Shown here one piece after another: positions 128-38,541 of a stretch of DNA of 62,289 bases (its first letter is position 1; each line of letters begins with the position of its first letter). The DNA is taken from positions 1-62,289 of the IMG/VR virus record IMGVR_UViG_3300046009_002641; one strand, 5' to 3'. The notes under the pieces were generated by a model. It made no database searches, was not told the DNA's origin, and saw nothing but the letters and a program-made list of their open reading frames with translations. A program made the position numbers and the translations under genes. The DNA is from a virus (Duplodnaviria; Caudoviricetes).

Positions 128-3100
128 AAGGCGCGATAGCTTCTGCGCCCGCATGAAGGGCATGAAGAAAAAGCTGACGTTGTCTGAAACTGCCAATGAT
201 CCCGATAGCCGGATCAATAAGTCGCTTCGGGCTTGGAACTGCGCCGATGGTGGTGCGGTTGATTCGTATAATGCAGTTCAAAAAGCCGCTAGAACAGATC
301 CTAGTGCGCCCTATGGCGTTGTGGATATGGGAGATAAGATCATTGTCGGTTCTCCGCACGGAGAACAAATTCCCTTGTCTGATGATTTGAGGGCAAGGAT
401 ACAGGATGTCGCTGGCAAAAGTGGCGCTTGGTATGAGGGATCTGGTGGAGACATTGAAGGAAACAGGAAACTTATTCCTAGCTACAGAGGCTCTTGGGAC
501 GATCAGGTCGCCAGATCAATTGAGGGATATCCTGTCGAATACATGGTCCCCATGTTTAGCAACGTGGAGGTCAATAAGCCGCATGAGATATATGCCAGCC
601 CTGATCGGTCGATATTTGATAGCATCGTGGCTAATCAGGATAAGGCAAAGTATTTCAAGGATCGGCGGTTTGACGCTGATGCGTTGCGTGATTTCTTGAC
701 GCAAGGCAGTGAAAAAGACACTGATCTTGTAAAGATGTCCCAGCTTCCGGCGACGAAGGAAAACCTGAGCAAGTTCTTTTCCACAGGCGAACGTCTTATG
801 TGGCCTGATAACTGGCAGGAATATCCCAACCGTCTTGGTAAGATGGCCAAGCGGTTTGAAGAATCGCGGAACAAGTATCTGCTAAATGCTCCTCCGGGCG
901 TTTATGTCACTGGCGCAGGACACATCCCAGAACTTCGCGGGATGAATAAGGATCTTAAGGTTATTGGTGGCGAAAGAGCCAGTGAAGCGGACGGTGGCCC
1001 TGTTTTTCACAAAGGCCGTGATGAAGCTCATATTAATTTTCAAGTCGCTAAGCCGGGGCCGCATACGACTCAGCTAGGTATTGAGGAGCCATATTTCCGT
1101 CGCTGGCTGTCTGAGAATCAGATCCCGTTTGATCCGAATGAGGCTAAGCCCGACTACGACATGCGTGGCTATTATCGCGCCGCCATGGCTGGAGATCCGC
1201 GCACGGCGACTGAGATCAACGCCAACGATCATCAGCGACATTTCCCGGATGTGTGGAAAACCCCGTCGCATGAAACATTCTCCGCCCAGAGCCAATACGC
1301 CACACCGAATGCCCCCGATTGGAATGAGCAAGATCAGCTAGTCGATAAGGCTGGTCGCGTCTTATATGATGAGCGCATGGGTCGTGACGATGGTGGTGCG
1401 GTTGATTCGTATGCCGCTGTGCAAGAAGCGGCCAAAGGCGGTGAGGTTTGGGATAAGCCCCGCCCCAAGAAGCTGGGCAAGCCTGAGCCGCTGAGCAGCA
1501 AAGAAAAGGCCAGCGCCAAAGCTGCGGCCAAGGCTGCTGGTCGTCCGTATCCTAACCTAATCGACAATATGCGGGCTGCTAGGGCGGATGGTGGCGAGGC
1601 TGATCCGTATGAATCGGTTCAGCAGGCTGCCAATCCAGATTCTGGGATGGAAAGATTTTCCCAAGAGGACATTAACCGCGCGGCCCATGGCGCTACGCCT
1701 GCTGTTCCGCCTTTGACGGTTATTGAGAACGCCGCACCGGCTAGCCCTGTGTCTGATGCTATGCGTGGGGCGTATAATGCTGCGGTTCCTCCAACCGCCA
1801 GATTGTTTGCTGAAAGCGCAATGGGCGCTCATAGCCCGATCACTGAGCGTGATTTTTCCCCATCCGATATTCAAAACATGAAGGATCGACTGGCTGAACA
1901 ACAACAGTTTAATGCCAGAAGAGAAAAAAATCTTCAAACAATCCAAGATACGATGACGCCTGAAGCATACCGTCATTATCAGGCTATGACTGATCAGCCG
2001 ATTGGCAGTGATGAAGATTATCGACGGTATATGGCCCACAACGCTGAGGCCATTAAAACATTTCAGGATACCCGTGGTCAGACAGGCGTTCCATATGGGA
2101 CGACGTTTGGCAAAGAGGATCAGCCTAATCAGCCTCTTAGTGTTTATTCGCCTGAACAGGGCAACCTTCTGACGTCGTTGCAGAGATCATATACTGATCC
2201 GGGCTATCGCACGGGCATGACCCTTGGTCGGTTTAATGTTTATGACACTCCTCAAGGTCGCGTGGCAGTTGATAATTATGATTTTAGAGGTAGGAAACAG
2301 TCGTGGTCAGACGTTGTCAAAGGCTTTCAAGAGCAACCGTTTGTAACTGCTCTTCGTGGATCAATCCCGACGGTATTTCCTAATATTGATCGTCCAGTTG
2401 CGGTCAATTTGGATAAGCCCGGTAACTATACTTACACCGGAAAGGCTATCCTTACCCCCGGTTCTTACTTAGAACCTGAACAAACGCAAACGCCTAAGCG
2501 CGACGATATCGCTGACTACAGAACTAAAACGCCGGGATTCCATCAATTCAATCAGATTGCAATAAACAGCAGGACGCCTGATGTAACGGTTCCTCTTCCC
2601 CCGCGCCGTCCGACGTCCTTTGCCGATGGCGGTGAAGTTATCGGTGATAAAGTCGAAGGCGATGTCCAGTTCGCAGAGGATGATCCCTACGCCAAGGTTC
2701 AGGAAGCTGCCAAGCTTCCCATGATGGCGCAGAACGACTTTGCCATGCGTATGCCGCAGCCAGAAGTCCGCTATGACACTGGCCCGCAGCCGGGTGAGGC
2801 TACCCTTAAAGGGTATGAACCGACGATTCGTGAGCAAATCGCCCAGAAGCTAATGGGTGAGCAGTCCCCGTCTCCTGAACGTCGCCAATTTGTTGAGGGC
2901 CTTATGGGAACCTCCGGTATTGGTGAACGCAGCATGGGTGTTGCCGACTTTATTCCTTTGGCTGGACAGGCGTTGCAAGCTCAGGAGTCGTATCAATATC
3001 GTGATCCTAAAGGATTTTTGCTTGCTACTGTCCCTGTGCCGGGGGCCAATATTGAGGGCAAAATAGCTCAAGGCGCTGCCGCCGCTGCTGAACGTGCTAT

Positions 3101-6011
3101 GGTTGGACAGGCTGCTCAACAGATGACGAAATCACAGTCTCAGGCCGCCATGAAGCAGGCTTGGGAGACTGGGCAAGGTAACGCAGACAAGTATCGTAAT
3201 TGGCAGCACCAATGGAATGTTGAGCAGGGGCCGCAATATACGGTTGCCCAGCCTGCTCCGGCGGCGGTTCCAGCTATGGGGCACAATATGCCGCCTGAAA
3301 CAATCCCGGTTGACTACAATCGTATCGTCAATCCGGCTGGATTCTACAGCCTTGGCCATGAGGTTGCTTCAACGCAACTACCTGATACGGTTCGCACTTG
3401 GCAAGAGATGCAATCCCTTCTCAAAAAGGGCGGCGTCAAAGATGAGGAAATGCAGTTTGCTGGCCTCCTTGGAATGAACCCGGCGACAAAAATCAGCCGC
3501 GATGAAATAGCGCAGGCGTTTGAGCGTAATTTTCCGCAAGTCGAAACGGTGTGGAAACGCAGTTCAGCCCCCGTCCCGGCTGAGAGAATTAATCAGGCTG
3601 TCCAAAATCGGACGCAGGCTCAAAATGATTTGCGTGATGCGAATACTAACCTTTGGAACGCCGCAAATCCTACCCATCAAGAAGATCCGGTTTTGAATAT
3701 ACGCGGGGACGAAACTCCTTGGAGCCTCCCTGATTTAAGAACCGCTTTAATGAATGATCGTGTCAGGTTTGATGATCTTGACGAACATGTTAGAGGCCCT
3801 GCTATGGACTGGCAGGATGCTTGGCGTCGGTATCAAAATGCTGAATCTCAGGTTCGCAATATAGAAGCGCCTACTAGGCCGGAAATGGCTCCGAAATGGG
3901 AGAAATACACGCATTCGGGCGGAACTGATTACTCAGAATCAGTCTTGAGATTGCCGTATAACAACCCGGCTTCGTTTAGGCACATTGCCCCTGAGATTGA
4001 AGTCAAATACTCAGACCAACACGCTGCGTTGAAAGAAAAGCTTTTTAATCTCAAGGAGTCTTATCAAGCTCAAAGATTGAGCGATAATCAGCAGTTTAAT
4101 GCCGCAATGGATGCGTATAAACAACGGTTTTACGATAAATTAATGAATGAAGCGTTGGAATCTGGTTGGTCGCCAGAAGATGCAATGCGTCATGCTAAAA
4201 AGTTTGTCAACGATACCAGTTATAGTGGAATGGCTAATTATCTGGGTGAACCTTATCCACGGGATCTGGATTATATGAGTCCTAGATCTGAGCAGCTAAA
4301 CGAAGAATTATATAAAACCAGAGAAGAAATAGGCGTTCTTACTAATAAAATGCTGGATGAATCGCGCGCTTTGGCTGGGCATCCGTCATATACTGAACAG
4401 GTTTATCGCCACGAAAGCCACCTTGGTAATATAGACAACCCTCTGCTTCACCAGCGTTGGAAAGAGCGCGTTGGGCCGGAGGGCGAGCGCATCTTGTCCA
4501 ATGAGGAGTTCCAAAGCGACCTTGGCCAAGAAGGCGCTGAAAGAGGCTTTAAAGATCCGACTGCCGATAAACGGCGAGTGGAGCTTGAGCGCCAGCGGGA
4601 TGCTTTGCAGAAAGAATGGGATAATGAACAGCGCAAACTGTTGGAAGAAACTAACGCAAAGTCTGCTGCTGTTATGCGCCAAAAGCGCGATGAGATTAAA
4701 CAGGTTACAGATGCTTATAATCAAACAAATCAATTAAGAAGCGCCTTTGACGCATATAATGAACAACTTGCTGCGATTGACGACAAGTATGCGCCTTTGT
4801 TGCAGCCGTTTAAAGATCAGCACAACGCGGCCAGTCAGCAGCTTGCCGCCAAGTATAAGCCAGAGAGCAAACGTCTGAACGACGCGATTGCGGCCATTAA
4901 ACAGCAGGGCGATGTTCCGTTGTTCCCTCATGTCGGCAGCACCGATCAGTGGGTTGAGCTTGGCGCGAAACACGCCCTGCAACACGCCCTTGAGAGTGGT
5001 CACGACAAGATATTTATCATGGGCGGTCAAGAGCAGGCCCGTCGTTGGCAATCTGGGTTGAGGCAGGCAGTTGATAATATTCGATGGGAAGGAGAGGCTA
5101 AACCTTGGAAAGGGTTTGGAACCATCGAAGAACAGGACGCCGCTGAGGAAAGATTTAAAAAGGCTAAAGAAGCACTGTCTAGCACTCTCCACAATGATCG
5201 CAGCTATGATGAGATTGTTAGAGAATTTAATGATGCTCAGGCTGCCATGAGGGACACTGTTCCTGGCTGGGGTCGGAGTGCTTACGATAAGCCTGACCCT
5301 GAAAAAGAGGGATTTAGGACTGTTTACGCAAAACCCTCTAACTATAGCCGTGATGCAAAATTTGTCATTGATAGGAATGGCAATATTATTGACTCATCGC
5401 TATCCAATGTTAAAGGGAAAAAATTAAAAGATGCCGTTGGCGGAGATTTAGCCAAACGTATTATGAGTGAAGAATCCGGCAATATTCCCATGAAAAATTA
5501 TGTTATGGGCGCTGAAGGTTACACTCAACACTATGAGCGAAAAGTCCCGTCTATATACAAAGACATCATCAAAAAATATTTAAAAGTTAATCCCAAAGTT
5601 GAAGCTGGGGCGATTGTGGAGCGCGGAGTGGAGTCAAATGAGATTCCGCCATGGGGTCAGTTAGAACGCCTTGGTTACGGAAAATGGAAAATCAATTTCC
5701 CTGACGGATCATTCCGTGACGATCTATCACGCGAAAAGGCAAACCGGCTTATTGAGCGTGGTAAACAAAACTTTGAGGCCATGGGCCGCACTTGGGAATC
5801 TAAAAACGTCCCGCCGATTGAAGGCCCTCACGGCACCTACATCCACATCACGCCCGAAATGCGGGAAGCTTATCAGCGGATTAAAAAAGAACGCGGGTCC
5901 GTGTTCCCCGGATATGCTGAGGGTGGGGCGGTTGTAAACGGTAGTGATCCGTATGATAATATGCGGTCATTATCTAGGAATTTTCCCCGCGCGCGGCGGG
6001 TTTCTCATTAG
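1..6011 (+). CDS. Giant (~2000 aa) mosaic virion/internal protein; modules joined by ADGG-type linkers; true start at 62158 (MAKTPAWQRAEGKNPKGG...)
   Basis: Open frame from 62158 through the junction; basic N-terminal module ending WNC (DUF6321-like), TraB/TIKI-like module, DYDMRG...HFPD module, EVWDKPRP...NLIDNMRAAR module, large C-terminal EEFQSD-motif domain; lies directly after portal. Confidence 0.85.
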   Translation, partial: AKTPAWQRAEGKNPKGGLNEKGRASLRAEGHDIKRPQPEGGSRRDSFCARMKGMKKKLTLSETANDPDSRINKSLRAWNCADGGAVDSYNAVQKAARTDPSAPYGVVDMGDKIIVGSPHGEQIPLSDDLRARIQDVAGKSGAWYEGSGGDIEGNRKLIPSYRGSWDDQVARSIEGYPVEYMVPMFSNVEVNKPHEIYASPDRSIFDSIVANQDKAKYFKDRRFDADALRDFLTQGSEKDTDLVKMSQLPATKENLSKFFSTGERLMWPDNWQEYPNRLGKMAKRFEESRNKYLLNAPPGVYVTGAGHIPELRGMNKDLKVIGGERASEADGGPVFHKGRDEAHINFQVAKPGPHTTQLGIEEPYFRRWLSENQIPFDPNEAKPDYDMRGYYRAAMAGDPRTATEINANDHQRHFPDVWKTPSHETFSAQSQYATPNAPDWNEQDQLVDKAGRVLYDERMGRDDGGAVDSYAAVQEAAKGGEVWDKPRPKKLGKPEPLSSKEKASAKAAAKAAGRPYPNLIDNMRAARADGGEADPYESVQQAANPDSGMERFSQEDINRAAHGATPAVPPLTVIENAAPASPVSDAMRGAYNAAVPPTARLFAESAMGAHSPITERDFSPSDIQNMKDRLAEQQQFNARREKNLQTIQDTMTPEAYRHYQAMTDQPIGSDEDYRRYMAHNAEAIKTFQDTRGQTGVPYGTTFGKEDQPNQPLSVYSPEQGNLLTSLQRSYTDPGYRTGMTLGRFNVYDTPQGRVAVDNYDFRGRKQSWSDVVKGFQEQPFVTALRGSIPTVFPNIDRPVAVNLDKPGNYTYTGKAILTPGSYLEPEQTQTPKRDDIADYRTKTPGFHQFNQIAINSRTPDVTVPLPPRRPTSFADGGEVIGDKVEGDVQFAEDDPYAKVQEAAKLPMMAQNDFAMRMPQPEVRYDTGPQPGEATLKGYEPTIREQIAQKLMGEQSPSPERRQFVEGLMGTSGIGERSMGVADFIPLAGQALQAQESYQYRDPKGFLLATVPVPGANIEGKIAQGAAAAAERAMVGQAAQQMTKSQSQAAMKQAWETGQGNADKYRNWQHQWNVEQGPQYTVAQPAPAAVPAMGHNMPPETIPVDYNRIVNPAGFYSLGHEVASTQLPDTVRTWQEMQSLLKKGGVKDEEMQFAGLLGMNPATKISRDEIAQAFERNFPQVETVWKRSSAPVPAERINQAVQNRTQAQNDLRDANTNLWNAANPTHQEDPVLNIRGDETPWSLPDLRTALMNDRVRFDDLDEHVRGPAMDWQDAWRRYQNAESQVRNIEAPTRPEMAPKWEKYTHSGGTDYSESVLRLPYNNPASFRHIAPEIEVKYSDQHAALKEKLFNLKESYQAQRLSDNQQFNAAMDAYKQRFYDKLMNEALESGWSPEDAMRHAKKFVNDTSYSGMANYLGEPYPRDLDYMSPRSEQLNEELYKTREEIGVLTNKMLDESRALAGHPSYTEQVYRHESHLGNIDNPLLHQRWKERVGPEGERILSNEEFQSDLGQEGAERGFKDPTADKRRVELERQRDALQKEWDNEQRKLLEETNAKSAAVMRQKRDEIKQVTDAYNQTNQLRSAFDAYNEQLAAIDDKYAPLLQPFKDQHNAASQQLAAKYKPESKRLNDAIAAIKQQGDVPLFPHVGSTDQWVELGAKHALQHALESGHDKIFIMGGQEQARRWQSGLRQAVDNIRWEGEAKPWKGFGTIEEQDAAEERFKKAKEALSSTLHNDRSYDEIVREFNDAQAAMRDTVPGWGRSAYDKPDPEKEGFRTVYAKPSNYSRDAKFVIDRNGNIIDSSLSNVKGKKLKDAVGGDLAKRIMSEESGNIPMKNYVMGAEGYTQHYERKVPSIYKDIIKKYLKVNPKVEAGAIVERGVESNEIPPWGQLERLGYGKWKINFPDGSFRDDLSREKANRLIERGKQNFEAMGRTWESKNVPPIEGPHGTYIHITPEMREAYQRIKKERGSVFPGYAEGGAVVNGSDPYDNMRSLSRNFPRARRVSH

Positions 6012-6052: not shown

Positions 6053-7051
6053 ATGGCACATCCCCACTCTAAAGAGGCCAAAGAAGGCCACGCCAAGAAA
6101 CTGGCTGGCTACGGCGGCAAATCCAAATCATTTGATGACAAGTCGTCTTGGGACGGCTTGAAGGGCCTGAACAATGATGAGCAGGCTGGCCTGAAGATCA
6201 TCGACAAAGAGCCGACGCTTTCTGAAGAAACTGCCCCCCGCATCATGCGTAAACGTGGCGGCGTGGTGAAGGGCAAGATGGCTGTGAAGCGTCTGGATAA
6301 GGCGTCTCGTGGCAAGAAGCGCGCTAATGGCGGTGAGCTTCCCCCTCCGGAAGAAGGCATGAAGGCTGCGGCCCGCGAAAGCGGCATGAGCTACGAAGAA
6401 GCCCCCAAGGAGGGCGGTATCACTGGCGCTGGTGAGGCTGCTGAGTCCTCTGGCCGTCAGGAAGATCGTCATGGTGGCCGCGTCCATAAGGCGGCTGGCG
6501 GCAAGATGTCTCACGAAGATGAGGCTGAGGATCGTTCGCTGATCAAGAAAATGGTCAAGGGTTCGTCGCTTACCGGAAAGAAAGCTGGCGGCGAAGTCAA
6601 GACCAAGAGCTATACGCCTGAGAACAACGTCACCAAGTCGGCTCGCGTTGGCCGCGCGTCAGGTGGCGCAGCTAAAGGCAAGACAACGGTGAACATCATC
6701 GTTGGTGGTGGCAAGGATCAGGCTCCGATGATGCCTCCGGCTCCGGGCGCTCCGGCTGCTCGCCAGCCGATGCAAGCCCCGCCGATGATGCCTCCGCAGG
6801 GTATGCCGATGGCTCCGGCTATGGCTGCTCCTCCGATGGCTGCTCCGCCGCCGGCCCCGCCGATGGGTGGCGCTCCGGGCATGGGTATGCCTCCGGGTGG
6901 TATGCCGCTGGGCCGCAAGCGTGGTGGTCGTATCCGTGATGCTTCGGACCTTACGGCTGGCGCTGGTTCGGGTGAAGGACGACTGGAAAAGATTGAACTT
7001 CAGGAAGCCAAAGGCTATCCGCCGAAAAGCGCCCGCAAGGGTTTCAAGTAG
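6053..7051 (+). CDS. Basic, Pro/Met/Gly-rich low-complexity virion-associated protein with 7 xxxGG motifs
   Basis: Operon position; RKRGG, RANGG, DRHGG, KAAGG, KKAGG, RASGG, RKRGG; long PM-rich tract. Confidence 0.8.
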   Translation: MAHPHSKEAKEGHAKKLAGYGGKSKSFDDKSSWDGLKGLNNDEQAGLKIIDKEPTLSEETAPRIMRKRGGVVKGKMAVKRLDKASRGKKRANGGELPPPEEGMKAAARESGMSYEEAPKEGGITGAGEAAESSGRQEDRHGGRVHKAAGGKMSHEDEAEDRSLIKKMVKGSSLTGKKAGGEVKTKSYTPENNVTKSARVGRASGGAAKGKTTVNIIVGGGKDQAPMMPPAPGAPAARQPMQAPPMMPPQGMPMAPAMAAPPMAAPPPAPPMGGAPGMGMPPGGMPLGRKRGGRIRDASDLTAGAGSGEGRLEKIELQEAKGYPPKSARKGFK

Positions 7052-7062
7052 GGGGATCGGCA

Positions 7063-31459: not shown

Positions 31460-34400
31460 ATGGGCAGCAAAGGCAGCGGCGGCGGCTCCAATCAGATGGG
31501 CTTTCAGGCGACAACCTCAACGTATTCGCCTAACCCGGAAGCGATGGCGGCATACCGCAATGCTCTTGGCATGGCTGAGAACGTAGCGCAGATCCCGTAT
31601 GAGCAATATCAGGGTCAAATGACCGCTGGCTTTACGCCGGATCAGTTAGCTGCTTTTCAGGGAACGCGCGAGATGCAAGGCATGGCCCAGCCTTACATCA
31701 ATGCTGCGACATCCGCTGTAAATCAGTCTTTGCAGCTTGCCGATCCGCGTAACTTTACGCCTGCCGCGCTTGATCAGTATTACAACCCTTATCAGCAGAA
31801 CGTCATCAACTCTACTAGAGCAATGATGGCTCAGCAAAATGCCCAGCAGCAAAATGATCTTACTGCCCGCGCCATTCAGCAGGGCGCTTATGGCGGTGAT
31901 CGTTCTGGCGTTGCCCGTGCGGCTTTGATGGGACAGCAGTCTCTTGCCAATCAGCAAATTCTGTCCGGTCTCCAGCAACAGGGTTATCAGCAGGCTGTTG
32001 GCCAATTTAACCAGCAACAGCAGCAGGCGGTTAACGCCGCTCAGCAAGGGGCTTATAGCCTTGGCCAGCTTGGCCTTCAGGGCCAGCAGGCTGCGCTTCA
32101 GGGCATTCAGGCGCTTCTTGGCACAGGCGGTATGCAGCAGAACCTTGCTCAGCAGCAGCTTTCTGCGGCCTACAATCAGTGGCTTCAGGCCCGCGCCTAT
32201 CCTTACCAGCAAGCCAATTTCTATTCTGGCATTGTGTCTGGCATTGCTCCGAATATGGGCGGAACAACCAACACGATGGGCTTTGGCACGGGCCAAACGC
32301 AGCAGCAGCAGGCGTCTGGTGGCGGCGGTGGCGCTGGACTTCTGACGTCGGCTCTTTCGTTCTTGCCGATGCTCATGGGCGCTTCTGATAGAGACGACAA
32401 AACCGATATTCAGTATTTGGGCAAGGACGAATCGGGCGAGAAAATTTATTCATATCGCTACAAGGGCGATCCAAAGTCTTACCCCAAAGTTGTCGGCCCG
32501 ATGGCGCAGGACATTGAAAAGGAAGATCCTGATCGCGTTTATGAAGTTGGTGGCCATAAGATTGTTGAGGGCCTTGGACATCTTGCTCCTAGTCAGCGCG
32601 AAGGCCGCGCCGATGGCGGCGGTATGTATAGCTCCCCGACTGTAGATCCGTATGCTTATCAGCAGTCTCCTTATCAGGCCGATCAGCGTTTTGACCCCGG
32701 ATTTTCCAAGGGTCTTGAGGCGGTCATTGATCCGGCCATGGCTAATAAGATTGCCTCTAGTCGCTGGGTCTCTCAGCCCGCTGATCAGAGCCAAAGCCAG
32801 CAGACGCTTGATGAGCAGATGCAATACCGGAATCCGGAATTTAATCTGTTCCCGTATTTCCAAGACGGTCAACAGTCTCAAAGCCCGTTCGATGGTAATT
32901 CTGAAAAGCATGAAATGTATGCCGATGGCGGTGGCGTTGGCGGTTTAGGCGACTTAATGAAGGCTAAGACCCCGTTTGGCGCTGCTAACCCTTATGTTGA
33001 GGCCATGCCGATTACCCCCGGCAAAGCTCATATTCCTGAACCTCCGAAAATGAACTGGCTGCCCGGCCTTCCGGGCGGTGGCCCGTCCAGCGGAGGCGGT
33101 GGTGGTGGCGGCGGCGGTGGTGGAGGCATGCCAAAGCTTCCTAAGATGGGTGGATCTAAGGCTGCTTCGGCTGGCGCTGCGGCCCCGTCTGAAGCTGCGT
33201 CGGCTGAACACGCTGCGGCTCCTACGGCTGAGGCTTCGGCTCCCGCTCCGGTTGCCGACGCTGGCGCTGCGGCTGCTCCGGCCATGGATGCTGGTCTTGG
33301 TGGCATTGGCGGTGGTCTGGAAAATATCTTTTCCGGACTTGGCGGCATGTTGCCGATGTTCAATCACGGTGGCCGTGTGCATATGGCTGATGGTGGCGCT
33401 GGCGCTGCCGGCGGTATCGGCTCCAGTGGATTTGCTGGCGCTGAGGGCCTTGGCGCTGGCGCGGTGAAGGGAGTGATTGGCGAGTCTGGTTCTGGAACGC
33501 TTGGCTCTTTGGCTCCGGCCATCAAGCTTGCCCCGACTGAAGGCCCGTTTGGCAAAATGTCTTACGGCAACTGGCTTGATCGGGCTATGTCGCTTGATCC
33601 GGGCCGTCAGTTGACGCCGGAAGAACAGGGGCAGCCTTCGCTTCCCAAGCCGGGAACGCAGGGCAACCGTCCTTGGCTTCCGGGTGAGACGCAAAGTCAG
33701 GTCATCGGAAATCAGAATCCGGGCCTTGATCCGTTGATGATGATGATGGCTGGCGGCAAAGGCGCCACAAATCTTGCTCTTGGTGCGCTGATTGGCCAGC
33801 AGAACGCGGCTAATTCTGCCCGTGAACAACAGGCTGCGGCTCAGGCCAAGCGCGCTTCGATTATGTCCAGTCCGCAAACTCCGGCTGGCTATTCCCAGTC
33901 GCTGGCAAGCAATATCGTCAATCCGCGCACGGGCCTGTTCAACGTGAACTACGGCACCTACTACATGCCGCACTATGCGGAAGGTGGTCGCGTTGGAATG
34001 GCTGATGGTGGTGAGCCGTCCCGTTATAATCCGACTGCCCGTGATCTGGATTACTGGGCTAGAACCGTCGCCAAAGAAGCCGCAGATCAAGGTGACAAGG
34101 GCATGGCGGCTGTCGCTTATGCCATCAAGAACCGTCTTGAAAGCGGCAAATATGGCCGTTCAATTGCTGACGTTGTGACGGCCCCAAAGCAGTTTTCGCC
34201 TTGGAATCGTGAAATGCGCGGCACTGCTGCTGATCCGCGTCGTATGGACACCAATAGCCCTACTTATAAAAAGGCTATGGAGATTGTTCAGGGCGTTGCG
34301 TCTGGCAAGATTGCTAATCCGATTGGATCTGCAGTCAACTTTGCTAACCCGGCTCTTTCCAGTGCGCGTTCTTTACGGACTTGGATTAATCCCATGATCC

Positions 34401-36757
34401 GTAGCGGAAACGCTATTCGCATCGGCGAACATGTATTTGGGACGCCGGGCGGCGCTTCTACTGGCGCGCGTCGTTATGCGGTTGGGGCCCCCTACGGCTC
34501 GCCGTTTAGCACTCCGACGACGGTGGCAAAGGTCCATCCGGTGACGGGTGAGCATCCTGTTGTTGCGGCTGATCAGCGTCTGGCTTCGCAGCCTACGCCT
34601 GCCCCTGCTCAGGTAGTCCCGACGGGTAGCGTTTTAAATCGCATTAATCCGGCAGATCCTTCTGGTCCTCTTCTTGGGCAATTTCCGATCCCGCCTTCGG
34701 CTAAGATGCCACAGACCGCTCCGGCTCCGCAAAAACCCGGTTTTAGTCTTGCGAGCCTTAGCCCTGTTGGATCGGCACAAGCTGATGAAGCTGGACCGTC
34801 TATGCCAGAAGGTGTGATCCCGCGAATCCGTCCCGGTTTTGAGTCTATTCAGGGTCCAAGCCAGTTGGCTGGGTTGCAGGCGACGAAGCAGCTTAATCCT
34901 AGCTCCTTGAACGCCGCCATGGGAACGCCCAAGACTGGTATTTCAGGTCTTGATATGGAAAGCTTCACTCCTCCCGGAATGGCCGGTGATCGTGACCTTA
35001 TGGGCGCGCAGCCGCAGGGATTTGGCACATTTGCACCGTCTGATATGGGTCCGCAGGCGTCCCAACCCGACATGCCTTGGGATCGTCCAATTGTTGCTGA
35101 AAGTGAGCCTGAGCGCGCTGCTCCTTCCCCGGCTCCGAAACGTGCTGAGCCTGCCGCTCCGGCTGGTGAGAATGGCAAGTTCTTCGGTGACTACCGCGAC
35201 TATGAACCTTGGGCTAGTGACCCGATTGGCAAGGCTCTTGATGAAATCATGGGTGAGAAGCCCATGTCCTTGCACAAGGGCGCGTCTATGTGGGACGTCG
35301 GCGGCGGCGAAACATCCGGTGGCGGCTTCGACCTTGGCGATATTGGCGATCTGTTTAAGCAATATGGCGGTCGCGTCGGCATGGCTGACGGTGGAGATCC
35401 TCTTGCTAATCTTGATCCTGAAATGCTCAGCGATGAGCCGATGGATGAGGACCAAGCTGGGTTTACGTCAGAAGCCCTTGCCGCCGATGATCAGGTTGAC
35501 CCGAATGACCGTATTGTTGCGACAGACAGACCGGAGCAGCGCGAACAGCCGCAGCAGCCGGGTTTTGGAGGCCTGACTTCTCCGATCACCGGCAAGCCGA
35601 TGACTTGGGGTCCGGCCTCTCAGGCGCTTTTGGCGGCTGGACTTGGCATGATGGCCTCTGATCGTGTGAATCCGCTTCAGGCGATTGGCGAAGGTGGCTT
35701 GCGTGGTCTTGAGTATTATCAGAGCGCCTCTGCCCAAGAACGCGCACAGCAGGCTGCTGAGGCCCGCTTAGCCCGTGAAATGGAGCAGCGCCGCACAACT
35801 GAGCAGCATTGGCAAACCGAAATGCAGCACAAGCGCAATGTTCTTGAGGCTGCGGAACGCGCGCGTCGGACGGGTAAGATCGGCGTTATCGGGACTGATG
35901 AATTTGGCTATCCGATTCGCGGGTGGGTGTCTGGCGAAAACGTCGGCCAGCCGCTTGAGCCGTCGCGTGGATCTACGTCGCGCACGACTCAAACCGGCGC
36001 GGAAGGTCTGCATGGTGAGGAGTTCTTGAATACGCTTCCGGGCGATACTGCGCTTCAGGTTAAATCAATTGCTGAAGGCAGGCAGGCAATTCCTCCGGGC
36101 CGGTATTCTCAGCCCCTCCGTCGTGCTGTTACTCAGTATGATCCTGATTATTCTGAACAGCGTAAGAAGGTTCGTGACTCATTTAATGCGACTGAGCCTA
36201 CTAAGGCGGGCGGTCAAATCATTGCTGGCAACACGGCTATTGGTCATCTTGGCGAATTGTCAGATGCGGCTCATGCCCTTGGCAATACCGGCTTCAAAGC
36301 TTGGAATTGGGCTAAGCAGCACGGCAAGAGCATGACTGTCGGTAATCCAAAACTTGAGGCTTTTGAGGCGACCAAGGATCGTTTCATTGAAGAAGCTACG
36401 AAGTTCTATCGTGGAACTGGCGGAACTGAAGCCGACATTCAGCGCGCGATTGGTCGCATGAGTTCGGCTAATACTCCGCAGGAACTTGATGCGGTTATTG
36501 CTCAGGAAGCCAAATTGTTTGAGAGCAAGGTCAATGCTCTTGAGGATCAGTGGCGCAAGACGATGAAGTCTGACGCCATTGAAGTTGGCGACATCAACTA
36601 TGGTGTTGTCCGTGGTCACGCCAAGGATGCTCTGGAAAAAATTCGCTCTCGCGTCTCTGGTGAATCTGGAAGCATAGAGGCCATGGCCAAGAAATATGGC
36701 ATGACGCCTGAGCAGCTTCGTGCAAAATATGAAGAAATGAAAAAGGGACGGCAATAA
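31460..36757 (+). CDS. Giant ejection/DNA-transfer protein with S74-type autocleaving domain, SleB-like cell-wall hydrolase and 8 xxxGG motifs
   Basis: Gln-rich N-terminus (YNPYQQNV, GAYGG.R); SDRDDKTDI...G.MAQDIE; ART..KEA..QG..GM.AVA..I.NR...QFSPWN. Confidence 0.85.
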   Translation: MGSKGSGGGSNQMGFQATTSTYSPNPEAMAAYRNALGMAENVAQIPYEQYQGQMTAGFTPDQLAAFQGTREMQGMAQPYINAATSAVNQSLQLADPRNFTPAALDQYYNPYQQNVINSTRAMMAQQNAQQQNDLTARAIQQGAYGGDRSGVARAALMGQQSLANQQILSGLQQQGYQQAVGQFNQQQQQAVNAAQQGAYSLGQLGLQGQQAALQGIQALLGTGGMQQNLAQQQLSAAYNQWLQARAYPYQQANFYSGIVSGIAPNMGGTTNTMGFGTGQTQQQQASGGGGGAGLLTSALSFLPMLMGASDRDDKTDIQYLGKDESGEKIYSYRYKGDPKSYPKVVGPMAQDIEKEDPDRVYEVGGHKIVEGLGHLAPSQREGRADGGGMYSSPTVDPYAYQQSPYQADQRFDPGFSKGLEAVIDPAMANKIASSRWVSQPADQSQSQQTLDEQMQYRNPEFNLFPYFQDGQQSQSPFDGNSEKHEMYADGGGVGGLGDLMKAKTPFGAANPYVEAMPITPGKAHIPEPPKMNWLPGLPGGGPSSGGGGGGGGGGGGMPKLPKMGGSKAASAGAAAPSEAASAEHAAAPTAEASAPAPVADAGAAAAPAMDAGLGGIGGGLENIFSGLGGMLPMFNHGGRVHMADGGAGAAGGIGSSGFAGAEGLGAGAVKGVIGESGSGTLGSLAPAIKLAPTEGPFGKMSYGNWLDRAMSLDPGRQLTPEEQGQPSLPKPGTQGNRPWLPGETQSQVIGNQNPGLDPLMMMMAGGKGATNLALGALIGQQNAANSAREQQAAAQAKRASIMSSPQTPAGYSQSLASNIVNPRTGLFNVNYGTYYMPHYAEGGRVGMADGGEPSRYNPTARDLDYWARTVAKEAADQGDKGMAAVAYAIKNRLESGKYGRSIADVVTAPKQFSPWNREMRGTAADPRRMDTNSPTYKKAMEIVQGVASGKIANPIGSAVNFANPALSSARSLRTWINPMIRSGNAIRIGEHVFGTPGGASTGARRYAVGAPYGSPFSTPTTVAKVHPVTGEHPVVAADQRLASQPTPAPAQVVPTGSVLNRINPADPSGPLLGQFPIPPSAKMPQTAPAPQKPGFSLASLSPVGSAQADEAGPSMPEGVIPRIRPGFESIQGPSQLAGLQATKQLNPSSLNAAMGTPKTGISGLDMESFTPPGMAGDRDLMGAQPQGFGTFAPSDMGPQASQPDMPWDRPIVAESEPERAAPSPAPKRAEPAAPAGENGKFFGDYRDYEPWASDPIGKALDEIMGEKPMSLHKGASMWDVGGGETSGGGFDLGDIGDLFKQYGGRVGMADGGDPLANLDPEMLSDEPMDEDQAGFTSEALAADDQVDPNDRIVATDRPEQREQPQQPGFGGLTSPITGKPMTWGPASQALLAAGLGMMASDRVNPLQAIGEGGLRGLEYYQSASAQERAQQAAEARLAREMEQRRTTEQHWQTEMQHKRNVLEAAERARRTGKIGVIGTDEFGYPIRGWVSGENVGQPLEPSRGSTSRTTQTGAEGLHGEEFLNTLPGDTALQVKSIAEGRQAIPPGRYSQPLRRAVTQYDPDYSEQRKKVRDSFNATEPTKAGGQIIAGNTAIGHLGELSDAAHALGNTGFKAWNWAKQHGKSMTVGNPKLEAFEATKDRFIEEATKFYRGTGGTEADIQRAIGRMSSANTPQELDAVIAQEAKLFESKVNALEDQWRKTMKSDAIEVGDINYGVVRGHAKDALEKIRSRVSGESGSIEAMAKKYGMTPEQLRAKYEEMKKGRQ

Positions 36758-38541
36758 TGGCTGGCGAACCTACCTTTGAAGAACTTGACGCCCTTTTTGG
36801 TGGGGGCGCAGGTTCTGGCGCTGGCCCTTCTGAGCAAGCCCAGTCAGGGCCGTCTCAGGAAGAAATGCAGAGGCTTTTTGAAGAAGAAGCCATGCGCCAA
36901 AAGGCTCAGGAAAACGCCAGTTATCTACCGCAGGCTGGCGCTTTTGTAACCGGTGTAGGTTCCACCATTCCATTTGCTAAAGACGTTGCTGCTGGCCTTA
37001 AAACTGGGGCTTCATATCTTTGGGGCAATGAGCTTGAGGGAACTGCCGGAGAGCGGTTTGAGCAGGCTAAGCGTCGTCAGGAACAAGCTCAGCAGATATT
37101 AGGTGAGGAATATCCCCTCACCCAAACGGCGGGCATGGCGACGGGTATTGGCGCTCAGATCATGGCCCCCGGCACTAGGGCTTTGGCCGCTGGTGAGCGG
37201 GCTGCGGCTGAAATGGCTGGTGAAGCGGTTCCCAAGATGCTGGCTCCGGCTGCCCGTGGTGCGGTTCATGTCGGCGCAGGTGCTGGGGTTGGTGCGGCCT
37301 ATGGCGCTGGTGAAGGCGTTACACTTGAGGAACGCGCACAAAATGCGCTTATCGGCGCTGGGGTTGGCGCGGCTGGCGCTGCCGCTGCTCCCATCGTTGG
37401 GACCATAGCTAGGCCGATTGGTCAGAAACTTGGATTTATTAAGCCGACGCCCGGTGTAATGTCCAAAGATGAATTGTTCGATGCTGCCCGTGATGCTTAT
37501 AAAGCTTCAGAAAGCCAAGGCATTATGGTCCAGCCTAGTGAAATTAAGAACGCTTACGACCGAATCAGAAGCAACCTCACAGACCTTGGCTACCATCAAA
37601 AAAATCAGCCTGAGGTTCAAGTTGCTTTAGATGAGCTTTATAAGCTTAGTATGCCTACGATGCAGGGTCGCCCTAATTACACGACGCTAAAAGGCATTGA
37701 TATCATCAATCAAATAGCCCGTAACGCTTCTTCCAGTCCTAATGCTCAAACACGGCTTATGGGCAAAGCATTCCATGAAGGCATAGATGACCTTTTGGAT
37801 AGGTTAAGTCCTCAGAACGTGATTGGCGGCAACGCTCCTGAAGCTGTTAAGTCTTTGCAGGAAGCCCGAAACTATTGGAAGCTTGCGCGTAAGACCCAAA
37901 AAGTTGAGGATATTATTGATAACGCTATCCTTGAAACGGCATCTACTGGTTCTGGTGGCAACATCAATAATAAACTTAAGCAAGCCATCACTAAAATTAT
38001 AAAAGAAAATAAACGCAAGCCCGGCGGATGGACGCCCGATGAGCTTGCCGCAATGCGCGCTGTTGTTGAGCCGTCTGCTGGACGTGATCTCGCCCGTTTG
38101 TTTGGTAAGATTGCTCCGGGCGGCAACGGACTTCACGCGCTTCTTGAGCTTGGAGCGGTTGCACACAATCCGAAATTTGCTCCGTTGATTGCTGGTGGCC
38201 AGTTGTCGAAAGCATATGCTGATCGTGCAACTGCGGCGGCGGTTGATGATCTTCTTGAGCTTATCCGCGTTGGTGGACTGAGGAAGAACATGCCCAGAAA
38301 GAATCCTACATCCGCTGTTAAGGCAAAAAATGTCGGCATAGGCGCTACCCTTTCCGGTATGCAGCCTTGGGAGCGTGAAGAGCGCAAGTCTGGCGGTAAG
38401 GTTTACCCTGCCAAGCGCCTTACCCTTTTAGAAAGGGCTGCCCGCAAAGCTCATGCTGAATTGGCCGAAGGCTCAAAGCCTCTAATGAATATGTCGGATG
38501 AACATATCGCTGCTGGCCTGAATAACGCTAAAGAAGGATAA
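36757..38541 (+). CDS. Ejection / DNA-transfer protein
   Basis: Gly/Ala-rich membrane-like segment (GAGVGAAYGAGEG), helical body; RKSGG near C-terminus. Confidence 0.75.
   Translation: MAGEPTFEELDALFGGGAGSGAGPSEQAQSGPSQEEMQRLFEEEAMRQKAQENASYLPQAGAFVTGVGSTIPFAKDVAAGLKTGASYLWGNELEGTAGERFEQAKRRQEQAQQILGEEYPLTQTAGMATGIGAQIMAPGTRALAAGERAAAEMAGEAVPKMLAPAARGAVHVGAGAGVGAAYGAGEGVTLEERAQNALIGAGVGAAGAAAAPIVGTIARPIGQKLGFIKPTPGVMSKDELFDAARDAYKASESQGIMVQPSEIKNAYDRIRSNLTDLGYHQKNQPEVQVALDELYKLSMPTMQGRPNYTTLKGIDIINQIARNASSSPNAQTRLMGKAFHEGIDDLLDRLSPQNVIGGNAPEAVKSLQEARNYWKLARKTQKVEDIIDNAILETASTGSGGNINNKLKQAITKIIKENKRKPGGWTPDELAAMRAVVEPSAGRDLARLFGKIAPGGNGLHALLELGAVAHNPKFAPLIAGGQLSKAYADRATAAAVDDLLELIRVGGLRKNMPRKNPTSAVKAKNVGIGATLSGMQPWEREERKSGGKVYPAKRLTLLERAARKAHAELAEGSKPLMNMSDEHIAAGLNNAKEG

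What the first reader, a model, noticed from the sequence alone, without database searches (positions are those of the whole stretch)
243..38397. Genome-wide xxxGG motif at domain boundaries of virion-internal proteins: candidate polyprotein-processing or capsid-loading system
Seen: about 28 copies of a 5-residue motif ending in GG in seven proteins. Position -5 is usually R/K/Y/F/M, and the motif is often followed by x-V. Giant ORF1 has ADGG 243, ADGG 987, DDGG 1386, AKGG 1431, ADGG 1584, ADGG 2622, AEGG 5916. 6053..7051 has 7 copies (e.g. RKRGG 6248, RANGG 6320). 7063..7260 has RRNGG at its end, 12289..12582 has 3, 30443..30976 has RASGG 30563, 31460..36757 has 8, and 36757..38541 has RKSGG 38383. 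In the two giant proteins the motif falls between otherwise distinct modules. Established: di-glycine cleavage matures virion proteins in African swine fever virus (Gly-Gly-X, pS273R) and adenovirus ((M/I/L)xGG-x). Inference: this phage either cuts its internal cargo after GG, giving ubiquitin-like C-termini, or uses the motif to load cargo into the prohead. No canonical prohead protease gene was recognised.
Basis: partly seen in the sequence, partly recalled or inferred. Interest (0 to 1): 0.92.

Follow-up and report, generated by a model that had tools for sequence, protein, structure and literature searches.

The report
Glycine-glycine junction tag on phage cargo proteins
A short peptide motif built around two glycines really does mark the end of every module in this phage's giant capsid-carried proteins and in those of its many uncultured relatives. 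No enzyme that could cut at it was found, so it looks more like a portable docking tag than a proven cleavage site.

Summary
All 28 listed motifs are present at the stated coordinates. In the seven proteins GG-x-[V/I] occurs 19 times against 3.8 in composition-matched shuffles (0 of 2000 reach it). The other 72 proteins are not enriched.

The pattern recurs in the syntenic proteins of a distant complete relative, and in 16 of 18 further related loci.

The motif is longer than reported:
- Giant proteins: R-x-G-[YF]-A-[DE]-G-G-x-[VI], then a short helix-like stretch.
- Basic proteins: R-x-x-[RFY]-K-x-G-G-[KR]-[VI].

In ORF1 it starts where stand-alone homologues of each module stop. It opens low-confidence linkers, and it is the point where modules are swapped between related phages. 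It also closes the C-terminus of 10 of 17 related giant proteins.

Syntenic relatives carry ART-PolyVal, PBECR5 and InPase domains, so these are polyvalent cargo proteins.

Best reading (about 0.4): a portable C-terminal cargo tag kept at each junction after gene fusion. Di-glycine cleavage (about 0.25) remains open.

The parts
3..6011 (+). ORF1, a giant post-portal protein of 2003 aa. The true start is ATG 62158 in the terminal repeat copy. Module order: A (DUF6321) - B - B' - C - D - E... - C-terminal tail.
   Evidence: Terminal repeat and start codon. DUF6321 aa 11-78. phrog_34011 aa 480-527. Module boundaries. Syntenic relatives carry ART-PolyVal, PBECR5 and InPase.
243..260 (+). Junction J1 (C|ADGG-AV), directly after DUF6321.
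   Evidence: 53 of 79 DUF6321 segments in relatives stop right after the Cys. All 26 extended ones continue with [AK][DET]G[GC]x[VI], two of them after one extra His.
987..1004 (+). Junction J2 (E|ADGG-PV), after module B.
   Evidence: In an alignment of 20 of the 31 stand-alone homologues (216-254 aa), 19 stop at or up to 4 residues before this ADGG; one is shorter.
1386..1403 (+). Junction J3 (R|DDGG-AV), before module C. It is also the right-hand end of a deletion seen in relatives.
   Evidence: L090, L092 and L094 join J1 directly to this point.
1431..1448 (+). AKGG-EV at the start of module C.
   Evidence: Conserved as [AK]-[KRE]-GG-x-V-W inside the stand-alone module-C proteins of 16 of 17 loci.
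1584..1601 (+). Junction J5 (R|ADGG-EA), after module C.
   Evidence: In 15 of 17 loci, module-C homologues stop within two residues of the residue before ADGG. Three different modules follow this junction in relatives.
2622..2639 (+). Junction J6 (F|ADGG-EV).
   Evidence: Homology blocks of L092 and L094 begin at aa 874-876.
5916..6008 (+). C-terminal tail element (YAEGG-AVVN..DPYDN..PRARR..).
   Evidence: Conserved in L090, L091 and L094. In a profile search, 10 of 10 hits have the tail at or within one residue of their C-terminus, and five of them carry 2-5 matching stretches in all.
245..289 (+). 45-nt linker repeat, copy 1. The other copies lie at 1388-1432 (84% identical) and 1586-1630 (71%).
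6053..7051 (+). g6053, a basic (net +21) Gly/Pro/Met-rich protein with 7 listed motifs and one double motif (GGRVHKAAGG, 6473-6502).
   Evidence: The GG pairs are invariant in three homologues while the residue before them varies. A family of the same kind sits upstream of GroES in relatives.
7063..7260 (+). g7063, 65 aa, ending RRNGG-RTK-stop.
12289..12582 (+). g12289, 97 aa, basic, with RKSGG, KKEGG and RKAGG-KV.
30443..30976 (+). g30443, 177 aa. An N-terminal module (phrog_2423) is followed by RASGG and then a second domain.
   Evidence: 48% identical homologue in MW202675. No protease signature.
31460..36757 (+). g31460, a 1765-aa ejection-type protein with 8 listed motifs. Three are double motifs (GGRV[GH]MADGG) at 33368-33397, 33983-34012 and 35366-35395.
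   Evidence: phrog_4287 'DNA ejection protein' matches aa 15-364. MW202675 annotates the syntenic gene as internal virion protein D.
32384..32539 (+). Peptidase_S74-like segment (self-cleaving chaperone of tailspikes) inside g31460, aa 309-360.
   Evidence: Pfam E = 9.9e-5, 23.0 bits against a cut-off of 22. 58-60% identity to tailspike or fibre genes of phages phiM5 and vB_OspP_OH.
34088..34438 (+). Hydrolase_2 (SleB/SpoIID-like cell-wall hydrolase) domain of g31460, flanked by double motifs.
   Evidence: Pfam E = 2.1e-15.
36757..38541 (+). g36757, 594 aa, with RKSGG-KV at 38383 followed by a helix-like stretch near the C-terminus.
   Evidence: MW202675 carries the same kind of motif in its syntenic 620-aa protein.
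7466..7882 (+). GroES-like (Cpn10) gene, a conserved member of the head module.
   Evidence: Pfam E = 3.7e-8; phrog_3188. Found at the same position in MW202675, Caulobacter phage RW and Pelagibacter phage HTVC023P.
7893..8873 (+). Probable scaffolding protein (acidic, Q/A/E-rich).
   Evidence: Sequence and synteny. Inference; no family hit.
10267..11181 (+). Major capsid protein, Mu gpT-like, 304 aa.
   Evidence: At least 7658 database clusters match; the top 120 are 83-95% identical.
59927..62152 (+). Portal protein (SU10_portal).
30984..31448 (+). GNAT acetyltransferase between g30443 and g31460. MW202675 has one at the same position.

Best explanation
The motif is the core of a portable element of about 15-45 residues that follows each cargo module. 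Its form is a basic/aromatic lead-in, then A-[DE]-G-G-x-[VI], then a short helix-like stretch (D-P-Y-x-x-V-Q-x-A-A in ORF1-type proteins, D-x-A-L-x-L in others).

I read it as a C-terminal cargo tag. On this reading it is a docking peptide through which proteins encoded between the portal and scaffold genes, and in the ejection-protein cluster, are recruited to a common partner during procapsid assembly. The partner is not identified; the scaffold, the inner face of the capsid protein and the portal are the obvious candidates.

The giant proteins would then be concatenations of [module + tag] units. When formerly separate cargo genes fused, each junction kept the tag of the upstream module. 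The di-glycine also gives a flexible hinge, and the repeated tag-coding DNA serves as the joint where modules are gained, lost or swapped.

Shown:
- The motif, its enrichment and its clade-wide recurrence.
- Its exact coincidence with module ends and swap points.
- Its strictly C-terminal copy.
- Homology between the internal and the terminal copies.
- The absence of a recognisable protease.

Inferred: that these proteins are inside the capsid, that the element binds something, and what it binds. Whether the tag is later cut after GG ('tag and cut') is open.
For: 1. Enrichment and replication.
- Window: GG.[VI] 19 vs 3.78 expected, 0 of 2000 shuffles.
- Complete relative MW202675 (MCP 80% identical, portal 43%), syntenic seven proteins: 22 vs 4.58, 0 of 2000. 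Its other 74 proteins: 8 vs 10.7.
- Of 80 MCP loci, 23 held a GroES hit and at least 1.5 kb of sequence upstream of GroES.
- In the 18 of those with MCP >= 74% identical, the post-portal ORFs hold 93 motifs vs 18.0 expected. 16 of the 18 loci are reached by <= 9 of 500 shuffles.
- ORFs downstream of the MCP in the same 18 loci: 29 vs 22.7.

2. Specific flanks. This argues for recognition rather than a plain hinge. Among 56 instances in 17 polyvalent-type ORFs: R at -6 15 (3.5 expected), G at -4 19 (5.2), Y/F at -3 27 (3.7), A at -2 32 (5.9), D at -1 21 (3.7).

3. Position at module ends.
- DUF6321 stops right before the motif in 53 of 79 relatives, and all 26 extended forms continue with it.
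- 19 of the 20 aligned module-B homologues, and module-C homologues in 15 of 17 loci, stop at or just before the junction.
- Six ORF1 boundaries lie within 1-3 residues of a GG. Random placement achieves this in 0 of 100,000 trials.

4. C-terminal copies.
- 10 of 17 polyvalent-type ORFs carry GG.[VI] in their last 50 residues, against a density of 0.154 per 50 aa.
- A profile of the last 45 residues of ORF1 variants finds 10 cluster representatives of 82-1550 aa. All 10 have it at or within one residue of the C-terminus. Five have 2-5 matching stretches in all, so internal linkers resemble the tail.

5. A parallel in other aquatic phages. 92 distinct small proteins share a tail that begins K-K-G-G-x-V; in 64 of the 92 the matched pattern ends exactly 3 residues from the stop. 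It sits on unrelated N-terminal parts, several proteins per phage in the loci inspected.

6. Flexibility. In the AlphaFold2 model of ORF1 1-620, the stretches after the motifs score below pLDDT 50 (85-96, 331-362, 397-479, 481-490, 529-552), while module B scores 80-98.

7. No protease.
- Pfam and PHROGs scans of the head module and the motif-bearing proteins find none.
- Pfam on 50 further window proteins finds 16 families and no peptidase.
- 26 post-portal ORFs of relatives show only cell-wall M15 peptidases and no MPTase.

8. Capsid location is plausible.
- 'DNA ejection protein' and 'internal virion protein D' labels.
- Polyvalent-protein domains in syntenic ORFs.
- In phage phi24B a 2811-aa polyvalent protein was found in virions by mass spectrometry (preprint 10.64898/2026.04.10.717836, passages read).
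Against: - No binding partner is known or shown.
- Stand-alone DUF6321, module-B and module-C proteins of other phages mostly lack the element, so it is not needed for the modules themselves. DUF6321 also occurs in T4-like cyanophages with unrelated capsids.
- Relatives with the same head module but distant capsid proteins (34-43% identity) are not clearly enriched. This holds for Caulobacter phage RW and Pelagibacter phage HTVC023P and for five loci with 5 motifs vs 2.1 expected. A receptor in the shared head proteins is therefore not obvious.
- One tag per polypeptide would be enough for loading, so the internal copies need the 'fusion relic' assumption.
- g6053-type proteins carry 3-7 copies, some doubled, which a simple tag does not explain.
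- 7 of the 17 polyvalent-type ORFs lack the motif in their last 50 residues.
- That these proteins are in the virion rests on annotation labels and analogy. No proteome exists for this clade.
Confidence: 0.4

Rival explanations
1. Polyprotein processing. A protease, phage-encoded but unrecognised or supplied by the host, cuts after (or next to) the di-glycine. This would release the modules of the giant proteins and trim short C-terminal tails, in the capsid or after ejection. It is the reader's first reading.
For: - The junctions coincide exactly with the ends of stand-alone homologues.
- The same junction joins different module pairs in relatives.
- The modules are unrelated enzymes that may need different targets: ART-PolyVal, PBECR5, InPase, cell-wall hydrolases. 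Iyer et al. 2017 (PMC5512222, passages read) argue that polyvalent proteins need processing and assign it to an MPTase domain, which is absent here.
- Several proteins end 2-5 residues after GG, as ubiquitin-like precursors do (that comparison is recalled): RTK-stop in g7063, VAK-stop and RWVLQ-stop in MW202675.
- One relative (L003) encodes a papain-family peptidase in the same gene block: Pfam C1 E = 1.5e-14, plus a sub-threshold C39-like hit at 8.7e-4.
- g31460 contains a Peptidase_S74-like self-cleaving segment, so some proteolysis of that protein is plausible.
- Precedent in adenovirus and African swine fever virus (recalled knowledge).
Against: - No protease is found in the window.
- None of the three candidates is supported.
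- The L003 papain-like gene has no homologue in the window or in the 13 relative loci searched, which include MW202675.
- There are no cysteines in the motif-bearing proteins outside DUF6321.
- The head module has a separate scaffold and a 304-aa capsid protein with no N-terminal extension. As I recall, this is the arrangement of protease-less podoviruses such as T7 and P22.
- The +2 V/I and the following helix are conserved, which is more typical of a binding motif than of a cleavage site.
- Cutting g6053 at every site would leave peptides of 8-50 residues.
- The rest of the proteome shows no depletion of the motif (1 vs 1.6 expected, low power).
Confidence: 0.25
2. A passive hinge and recombination joint. 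The element is only a flexible, helix-capped linker whose conserved coding sequence lets modules recombine in frame. It has no partner and is not cut.
For: - Three 45-nt linker copies in ORF1 are 84% and 71% identical to the first; the first two share about 24 identical bases.
- L090, L092 and L094 differ from the window by deletions or replacements whose ends lie in these linkers. P0154 lacks module B' in the same way.
- The linkers have low predicted confidence.
Against: - A hinge does not need R(-6), Y/F(-3), A(-2), D(-1) and V/I(+2).
- Synonymous codons vary freely among copies, so selection acts on the peptide.
- The element also ends proteins, where there is nothing to link.
- It occurs in small basic proteins that are not modular.
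Confidence: 0.2
3. A host-directed or nucleic-acid-binding motif. The basic versions (K-K-G-G-K-V, with G-K-T-K-G-K tails in other phages) would bind DNA or RNA, or mimic the GroES mobile loop to engage host GroEL after ejection.
For: - g6053 has a net charge of +21.
- The tails are rich in Lys, Arg and Gly.
- The phage GroES homologues of RW and HTVC023P have loops K-T-K-G-G-[IV]-I-L that resemble the basic motif.
- A GroES-like gene sits in the same module.
Against: - The giant-protein version is acidic (A-D-G-G, often followed by D or E).
- Only one hydrophobic residue follows GG, whereas the GroEL-binding loop has three (recalled).
- The window's own GroES-like loop has a single Gly.
- No test of binding was possible.
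Confidence: 0.07
4. Chance or a compositional artefact of glycine-rich proteins.
For: The seven proteins are richer in Gly (10.9% vs 8.3%), and plain GG is only mildly raised (62 vs 48.8).
Against: Per-protein shuffles keep composition and never reach the observed counts (0 of 2000). The pattern replicates in 16 of 18 further related loci, and the boundaries coincide with the motif.
Confidence: 0.01

Closest known systems
Polyvalent proteins of phages and conjugative elements (Iyer, Burroughs, Anand, de Souza, Aravind 2017, PMC5512222)
   Same: - Giant multi-module proteins encoded next to the portal, presumed to be delivered with the DNA.
- Syntenic relatives carry the family's signature domains: ART-PolyVal in 6 of 26 ORFs, PBECR5 in 2, InPase in 1.
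- g31460 carries PF07486, which that paper lists among polyvalent-protein domains.
   Different: - No MPTase domain, the peptidase that paper proposes for processing.
- ORF1 itself shows only DUF6321 in Pfam.
- A conserved junction and C-terminal element is present. 'linker' and 'glycine' occur 0 times in that paper's main text; its supplementary files were not seen.
Di-glycine maturation sites of adenovirus (adenain) and African swine fever virus (pS273R)
   Same: A G-G pair with a preferred residue a few positions upstream, found in several internal virion proteins including basic ones (recalled knowledge).
   Different: - Those systems are defined by a virus-encoded clan CE cysteine protease and by demonstrated cleavage.
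- Here no such protease is found, the substrates contain no cysteine-protease module, and cleavage is untested.
- The conserved +2 V/I and the following helix have no counterpart there.
Capsid targeting sequence of phage T4 internal proteins
   Same: A short portable peptide that brings unrelated proteins into the prohead (reviews listed; only the search listing was seen; details recalled).
   Different: The T4 signal is N-terminal and is removed by the gp21 prohead protease at L/I-x-E. Here the element is C-terminal or junctional, and no gp21-like protease is present.
Cargo-loading (targeting) peptides of encapsulins
   Same: Short, mostly C-terminal peptides with small residues followed by alternating hydrophobic and basic residues. 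They dock cargo on the inner face of an HK97-fold shell (recalled knowledge).
   Different: Sequence likeness is loose and was not tested. No binding to this phage's capsid protein has been shown. Encapsulin peptides are not repeated at internal junctions.
Phage phi24B gp47 (preprint 10.64898/2026.04.10.717836)
   Same: A podovirus carries a giant polyvalent protein (given as 2811 aa in the results, '>3,000' in the discussion). It was detected in virions by mass spectrometry and is proposed to be an ejection protein. How it is organised in the capsid is listed there as an open question (passages read).
   Different: gp47 has LPD domains and a MuF-C metallopeptidase. No junction motif is described in the passages read.

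Membership tests
Polyvalent proteins (Iyer et al. 2017) | Many unrelated, conflict-related domains in one polypeptide | tested here: met
   ORF1 is built of at least five blocks that are separate genes or are swapped in relatives. Syntenic ORFs carry ART-PolyVal (6 of 26), PBECR5 (2) and InPase (1). ORF1 itself matches only DUF6321.
Polyvalent proteins (Iyer et al. 2017) | Late-gene context next to virion structural genes | tested here: met
   ORF1 follows the portal directly and precedes the GroES, scaffold and capsid genes.
Polyvalent proteins (Iyer et al. 2017) | MPTase (zincin-like) processing domain. It is frequent in the family but not universal. | tested here: not met
   No such Pfam hit in ORF1 or in 26 related post-portal ORFs.
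Adenain / pS273R-type di-glycine maturation | Virus-encoded clan CE cysteine protease | tested here: not met
   No peptidase family appears in the Pfam or PHROGs scans that cover 76 of the 79 window proteins. The motif-bearing proteins have no Cys outside DUF6321. Very divergent proteases could still escape these scans.
Adenain / pS273R-type di-glycine maturation | Demonstrated cleavage after G-G in virion proteins | not testable with these tools
   Needs virion mass spectrometry. No cultured member of the motif-bearing clade was found.
T4-type prohead protease with capsid targeting sequence | gp21-like (S77) or other prohead protease next to the scaffold and capsid genes | tested here: not met
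   The genes between portal and MCP match only GroES-like and unnamed families.
Encapsulin-type cargo-loading peptide | Short peptide at the C-terminus of unrelated cargo proteins | tested here: met
   10 of 17 polyvalent-type ORFs. 10 of 10 profile hits are C-terminal.
Encapsulin-type cargo-loading peptide | Binds the inner face of the HK97-fold shell protein | not tested
   No informative test was obtained. See Tried and rejected for the one complex job.
Double-glycine leader / C39 peptidase systems | N-terminal leader ending in GG plus a C39 peptidase | tested here: not met
   The motif is junctional or C-terminal. No C39 domain is in the window. Only L003 has a papain-family gene with a sub-threshold C39_2 hit (20.3 bits against a cut-off of 24), and it is absent from the window.
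Peptidase_S74 intramolecular chaperone (within g31460 only) | S74 domain with the conserved Ser-Asp start, at the C-terminus of a fibre or spike | tested here: inconclusive
   Pfam gives 23.0 bits against a cut-off of 22, covering aa 309-360 and profile positions 1-57 of 58. The segment begins S-D-R-D-D-K. It is internal, not C-terminal, and self-cleavage is untested.

The most novel reading that the evidence does not exclude
Tailed phages of a very large uncultured clade load their capsids with giant polyvalent effector proteins by means of a repeated di-glycine docking peptide. This would be an encapsulin-like cargo-loading signal working in a true virus. It might be coupled to cutting after G-G by a protease of no known family or by a host enzyme ('tag and cut'). 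One short peptide would then explain how modules are recruited, released and shuffled.
Probability: 0.25. Interest if true: 0.85.

Novelty: new variant of a known kind. Interest (0 to 1): 0.62.

Why it matters
How very large cargo or ejection proteins get into phage capsids, and whether polyvalent proteins are cut into working units, are open questions. The phi24B preprint lists the first as unresolved. Iyer et al. 2017 answer the second only for proteins that carry an MPTase domain.

This work defines a short, testable peptide present at every module end in a clade whose capsid protein has at least 7658 database clusters. If it is a loading tag, it gives a handle for packaging foreign proteins into phage heads and links phage cargo loading to encapsulins. 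If it is a cleavage site, it points to an unknown protease specificity in phage maturation. Either way it explains how these effector arrays are rebuilt by module swapping.

Tried and rejected
- Shine-Dalgarno or gene-junction DNA signal hidden in the ADGG codons. Rejected: codons vary and none reads GGAGG.
- Module B as a Tiki/TraB/ChaN-like metalloprotease (my guess from the conserved G-x-x-H, E and G-H). Rejected: the model is confident (pLDDT 87.1), but of 98 PDB matches none reaches E <= 0.001, the best E is 1.4 and TM scores are at most 0.20. Pfam finds nothing.
- g30443 as a protease. No family hit. The Atlas gives only viral hypothetical clusters; the nearest named one, a crAss cargo protein, scores 0.76, which is chance level.
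- g42792 as a protease. The Atlas gives a ClpP lead at 0.82, on 12% of that cluster's members. There is no PDB sequence match and no homologue in MW202675 or any fetched locus.
- The L003 papain-family peptidase as the conserved partner. It is absent from the window and from the 13 relative loci searched, which include MW202675.
- Complex prediction with MCP (alignment A6) and g6053 residues 52-104 (alignment A7). The result was 'no answer', score 0.00. This is not evidence either way.
- PDB sequence searches with the MCP and the portal: no match.
- tblastn of a tail-bearing small protein against the phage collection: no match.
- Literature. 'DUF6321' returns 0 papers. No phage di-glycine maturation system appears among the 15 listed of 38 papers, nor or 100 (listings and abstracts only, apart from the passages cited).
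- Supplementary files of papers were closed and were not seen. Those of PMC5512222 and of the phi24B preprint could bear on linker motifs and on protein processing.
- One of my notebook entries says 15 of 18 loci. The count is 16 of 18.

Full report
**What the window is.** The 62,289-bp window is a whole virus record with a 127-bp terminal direct repeat (1-127 = 62159-62285). ORF1 is therefore not open at its 5' end. It starts at ATG 62158, right after the portal gene, and encodes 2003 aa.

The gene order is as follows:
- large terminase, 57127-58932
- portal, 59927-62152 (SU10_portal)
- ORF1
- a basic Gly/Pro/Met-rich protein, g6053
- two small genes
- a GroES-like gene, 7466-7882
- a probable scaffold, 7893-8873
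- two conserved genes
- a Mu gpT-like capsid protein, 10267-11181
- adaptor and fibre genes
- g30443, a GNAT acetyltransferase, the 1765-aa g31460 (its N-terminal part matches 'DNA ejection protein', followed by Peptidase_S74-like and Hydrolase_2 segments) and g36757

Pfam on 50 further proteins gives replication and recombination families plus GcrA, which as I recall is an alphaproteobacterial regulator. It gives no peptidase.

**The observation.** All 28 listed motifs are at the stated coordinates.

Shuffling each protein separately preserves its glycine content. Results for the seven proteins:

| Pattern | Observed | Expected | Shuffles reaching it |
|---|---|---|---|
| GG.[VI] | 19 | 3.78 | 0 of 2000 |
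| A[DE]GG | 11 | 0.83 | 0 of 2000 |
| [RKYFMH]..GG.[VI] | 11 | 0.73 | 0 of 2000 |

The remaining 72 proteins show GG.[VI] 15 vs 11.4 (343 of 2000). ADGG occurs ten times in the proteome, nine of them in ORF1 and g31460. Synonymous codons differ between copies, so the signal lies in the peptide.

**Replication in other genomes.** The seven proteins were picked for having the motif, so I tested other genomes.
- MW202675 is a complete 61-kb relative (capsid protein 80% identical, portal 43%, other proteins 33-52%). It has three post-portal proteins, a basic protein, a g30443 homologue, an 'internal virion protein D' and a 620-aa protein in synteny. These seven hold 22 GG.[VI] vs 4.58 expected (0 of 2000). 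Its other 74 proteins hold 8 vs 10.7.
- Of 80 loci fetched with the capsid protein, 23 had a GroES hit and at least 1.5 kb of sequence upstream of GroES.
- In the 18 of those whose capsid protein is >= 74% identical, post-portal ORFs hold 93 motifs vs 18.0 expected. 16 of the 18 loci are reached by <= 9 of 500 shuffles; L112 and L131 are not. ORFs downstream of the capsid gene in the same loci hold 29 vs 22.7.
- The five loci with 42-43% identical capsid proteins hold 5 vs 2.1.
- The cultured relatives Caulobacter phage RW and Pelagibacter phage HTVC023P show no clear enrichment.

The motif is thus a feature of one large clade, not of the whole head-module family.

**The motif is longer than reported**.
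- Among 56 instances in 17 polyvalent-type ORFs: R at -6 (15 vs 3.5 expected), G at -4 (19 vs 5.2), Y/F at -3 (27 vs 3.7), A at -2 (32 vs 5.9), D at -1 (21 vs 3.7), then G-G-x-[VI], often followed by D or E.
- Among 45 instances in 11 g6053-type basic proteins: R at -6, R/F/Y at -3, K at -2 (29 vs 4.7), K/R at +1 (35 of 45), and often a second G-G seven residues on. That is the double motif seen three times in g31460 and once in g6053.

**Position in ORF1.**
- The DUF6321 domain ends right before the first ADGG. In 53 of 79 relatives the gene stops exactly there. The other 26 all continue with [AK][DET]G[GC]x[VI], two of them after one extra His.
- Module B (aa 100-333) has 31 stand-alone homologues of 216-254 aa. 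Of the 20 I aligned, 19 end at or up to four residues before the second ADGG.
- Module C homologues in 15 of 17 loci end within two residues of the residue before the next ADGG. In 16 of 17 loci they contain the [AK]-[KRE]-GG-x-V-W motif internally.
- Natural variants of ORF1 differ by whole modules, and the breakpoints lie in the motif. L090, L092 and L094 join DUF6321 directly to module C. After module C, three different modules follow in different phages. Homology blocks restart at aa 874-876 and 1972.
- Six such boundaries lie 1-3 residues from a G-G. Random placement achieves that in 0 of 100,000 trials.
- The linker DNA is itself repeated: 45 nt, three copies, 84% and 71% identical.
- In an AlphaFold2 model of residues 1-620, module B is confident (pLDDT 80-98), while the stretches that begin at the motifs fall below 50.

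**Position in g31460.**
- The stand-alone 'DNA ejection protein' family ends a few residues before RADGG.
- MW202675's homologue loses similarity at its own KADGG.
- Double motifs flank the hydrolase domain on both sides.

**The element also ends proteins.** Ten of 17 polyvalent-type ORFs carry GG.[VI] within their last 50 residues, against an overall density of 0.154 per 50 residues. It is usually followed by a helix-like D-x-A-L-x-L or D-P-Y-x-x-V-Q-x-A-A stretch.

A profile of the last 45 residues of four ORF1 variants finds ten cluster representatives (82-1550 aa) among 1.84 billion proteins. In all ten the match is at or within one residue of the C-terminus. Five of them have two to five matching stretches in all, so the internal linkers are copies of the tail.

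A related pattern exists in other aquatic phages. 92 distinct small proteins share a tail beginning K-K-G-G-x-V. In 64 of the 92 the matched pattern ends exactly three residues from the stop. The tail sits on unrelated N-terminal parts, and the loci inspected carry several such proteins each. Some DUF6321 genes carry the same tail. Neither Pfam nor PHROGs describes it.

**What the proteins are.** Pfam on 26 post-portal ORFs of relatives finds the following:
- ART-PolyVal (6)
- GP88 (4)
- PBECR5 (2)
- DUF6321 (2)
- InPase (1)
- two cell-wall M15 peptidase families, Hydrolase_2 and GNAT (1 ORF each)

These are the polyvalent proteins of Iyer et al. 2017. The MPTase peptidase that paper proposes for their processing is absent here. 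That such proteins ride in capsids is supported by annotation labels. It is also supported by phi24B, where a 2811-aa polyvalent protein was found in virions. For this clade it remains an inference.

**Is there a protease?** None was found, and the details for each candidate are under Tried and rejected.
- One relative (L003) has a papain-family gene in the block, but it is not conserved.
- The motif-bearing proteins contain no cysteine beyond the two in DUF6321.
- The only self-cleaving candidate is the borderline S74-like segment inside g31460.

**Weighing the readings.**
- Chance is excluded.
- A plain hinge does not explain the conserved flanks or the terminal copies.
- Cleavage explains the junction logic and the need to free enzymes, but it has no enzyme, and the conserved +2 residue and helix look like a binding motif.
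- A portable C-terminal tag, kept at junctions after fusion, explains the terminal copies, the homology between tail and linkers, the restriction to one set of genes and the lack of a protease.
- The tag reading has no shown partner and needs a separate account for the multi-copy basic proteins.

I put the tag reading at about 0.4, cleavage at 0.25, hinge plus recombination joint at 0.2, and other binding roles at 0.07. The first two may both be true ('tag and cut').

**Novelty.** The protein class is known. The conserved junction and terminal element and its clade-wide use are not in the literature I could search. I rate it a new variant of a known kind.

Noticed in passing
window 1-127 and 62159-62285: A 127-bp terminal direct repeat. 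The record is a complete, circularly closed or terminally redundant genome, and ORF1 starts at 62158 inside the repeat copy.
   Followed up: yes
window ORF1, g6053, g30443, g31460, g36757: About 4,870 residues of presumed internal proteins hold only two cysteines, both in DUF6321. g28031, by contrast, has five.
   Followed up: partly
window 32384-32539: A Peptidase_S74-like segment (the self-cleaving chaperone of tailspikes) sits in the middle of the ejection-type protein g31460. It is 58-60% identical to tailspike or fibre genes of rhizobial and Ochrobactrum phages.
   Followed up: partly
window 3-245; 519 phage records: DUF6321 is 68-79% identical (in the 60 records listed) across unrelated phages: T4-like cyanophages, pelagiphages and Planktothrix phages. 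In Prochlorococcus phage P-HM1 it is the C-terminal domain of a 233-aa protein between the small and large terminase genes. Its function is unknown, and no paper mentions the name.
   Followed up: partly
L003-L084 (e.g. L009 10555-11695, L046 10498-12283): Clusters of small basic proteins downstream of the capsid gene share a C-terminal tail of about 25 residues, beginning K-K-G-G-x-V and ending in a G-K-T-K-G-K-like run, often with a final Cys. There are 92 distinct proteins, and no Pfam or PHROG family covers the tail.
   Followed up: partly
window 10267-11181: The capsid protein has at least 7658 database clusters, and the best 120 are 83-95% identical. Neighbouring genes of the same relative (MW202675) are only 33-52% identical. 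This indicates either unusual constraint or exchange of the capsid gene.
   Followed up: no
window 7466-7882: A GroES-like gene keeps a fixed place between portal and scaffold in MW202675, Caulobacter phage RW and Pelagibacter phage HTVC023P, and has a hit upstream of the capsid gene in 23 further relatives. The loops of the RW and HTVC023P homologues read K-T-K-G-G-[IV]-I-L.
   Followed up: partly
window 297-998: Module B of ORF1 belongs to a family of stand-alone viral proteins of about 245 aa with invariant His, Glu, Trp-Asp, Asn and Arg residues. The predicted fold is confident but has no significant PDB match.
   Followed up: yes
L003 16408-20507: A relative with a 67% identical portal carries a VanY-like peptidase, a phage lysozyme, a DUF7178 protein and a papain-family (C1) peptidase between its polyvalent proteins and its g6053 homologue.
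   Followed up: partly
window 19232-19735, 25954-27015, 39171-39857: Three features of the late region: an HNH endonuclease directly after the tail-fibre gene, a beta-1,4-glycosyltransferase-like gene, and a 228-aa protein that is 33% glycine with a thrice-repeated V-K-D-S-G-S-W-K start.
   Followed up: no
window 30984-31448: A GNAT acetyltransferase lies between g30443 and the ejection-type giant protein, here and in MW202675. Another GNAT hit occurs in one post-portal ORF of a relative.
   Followed up: no
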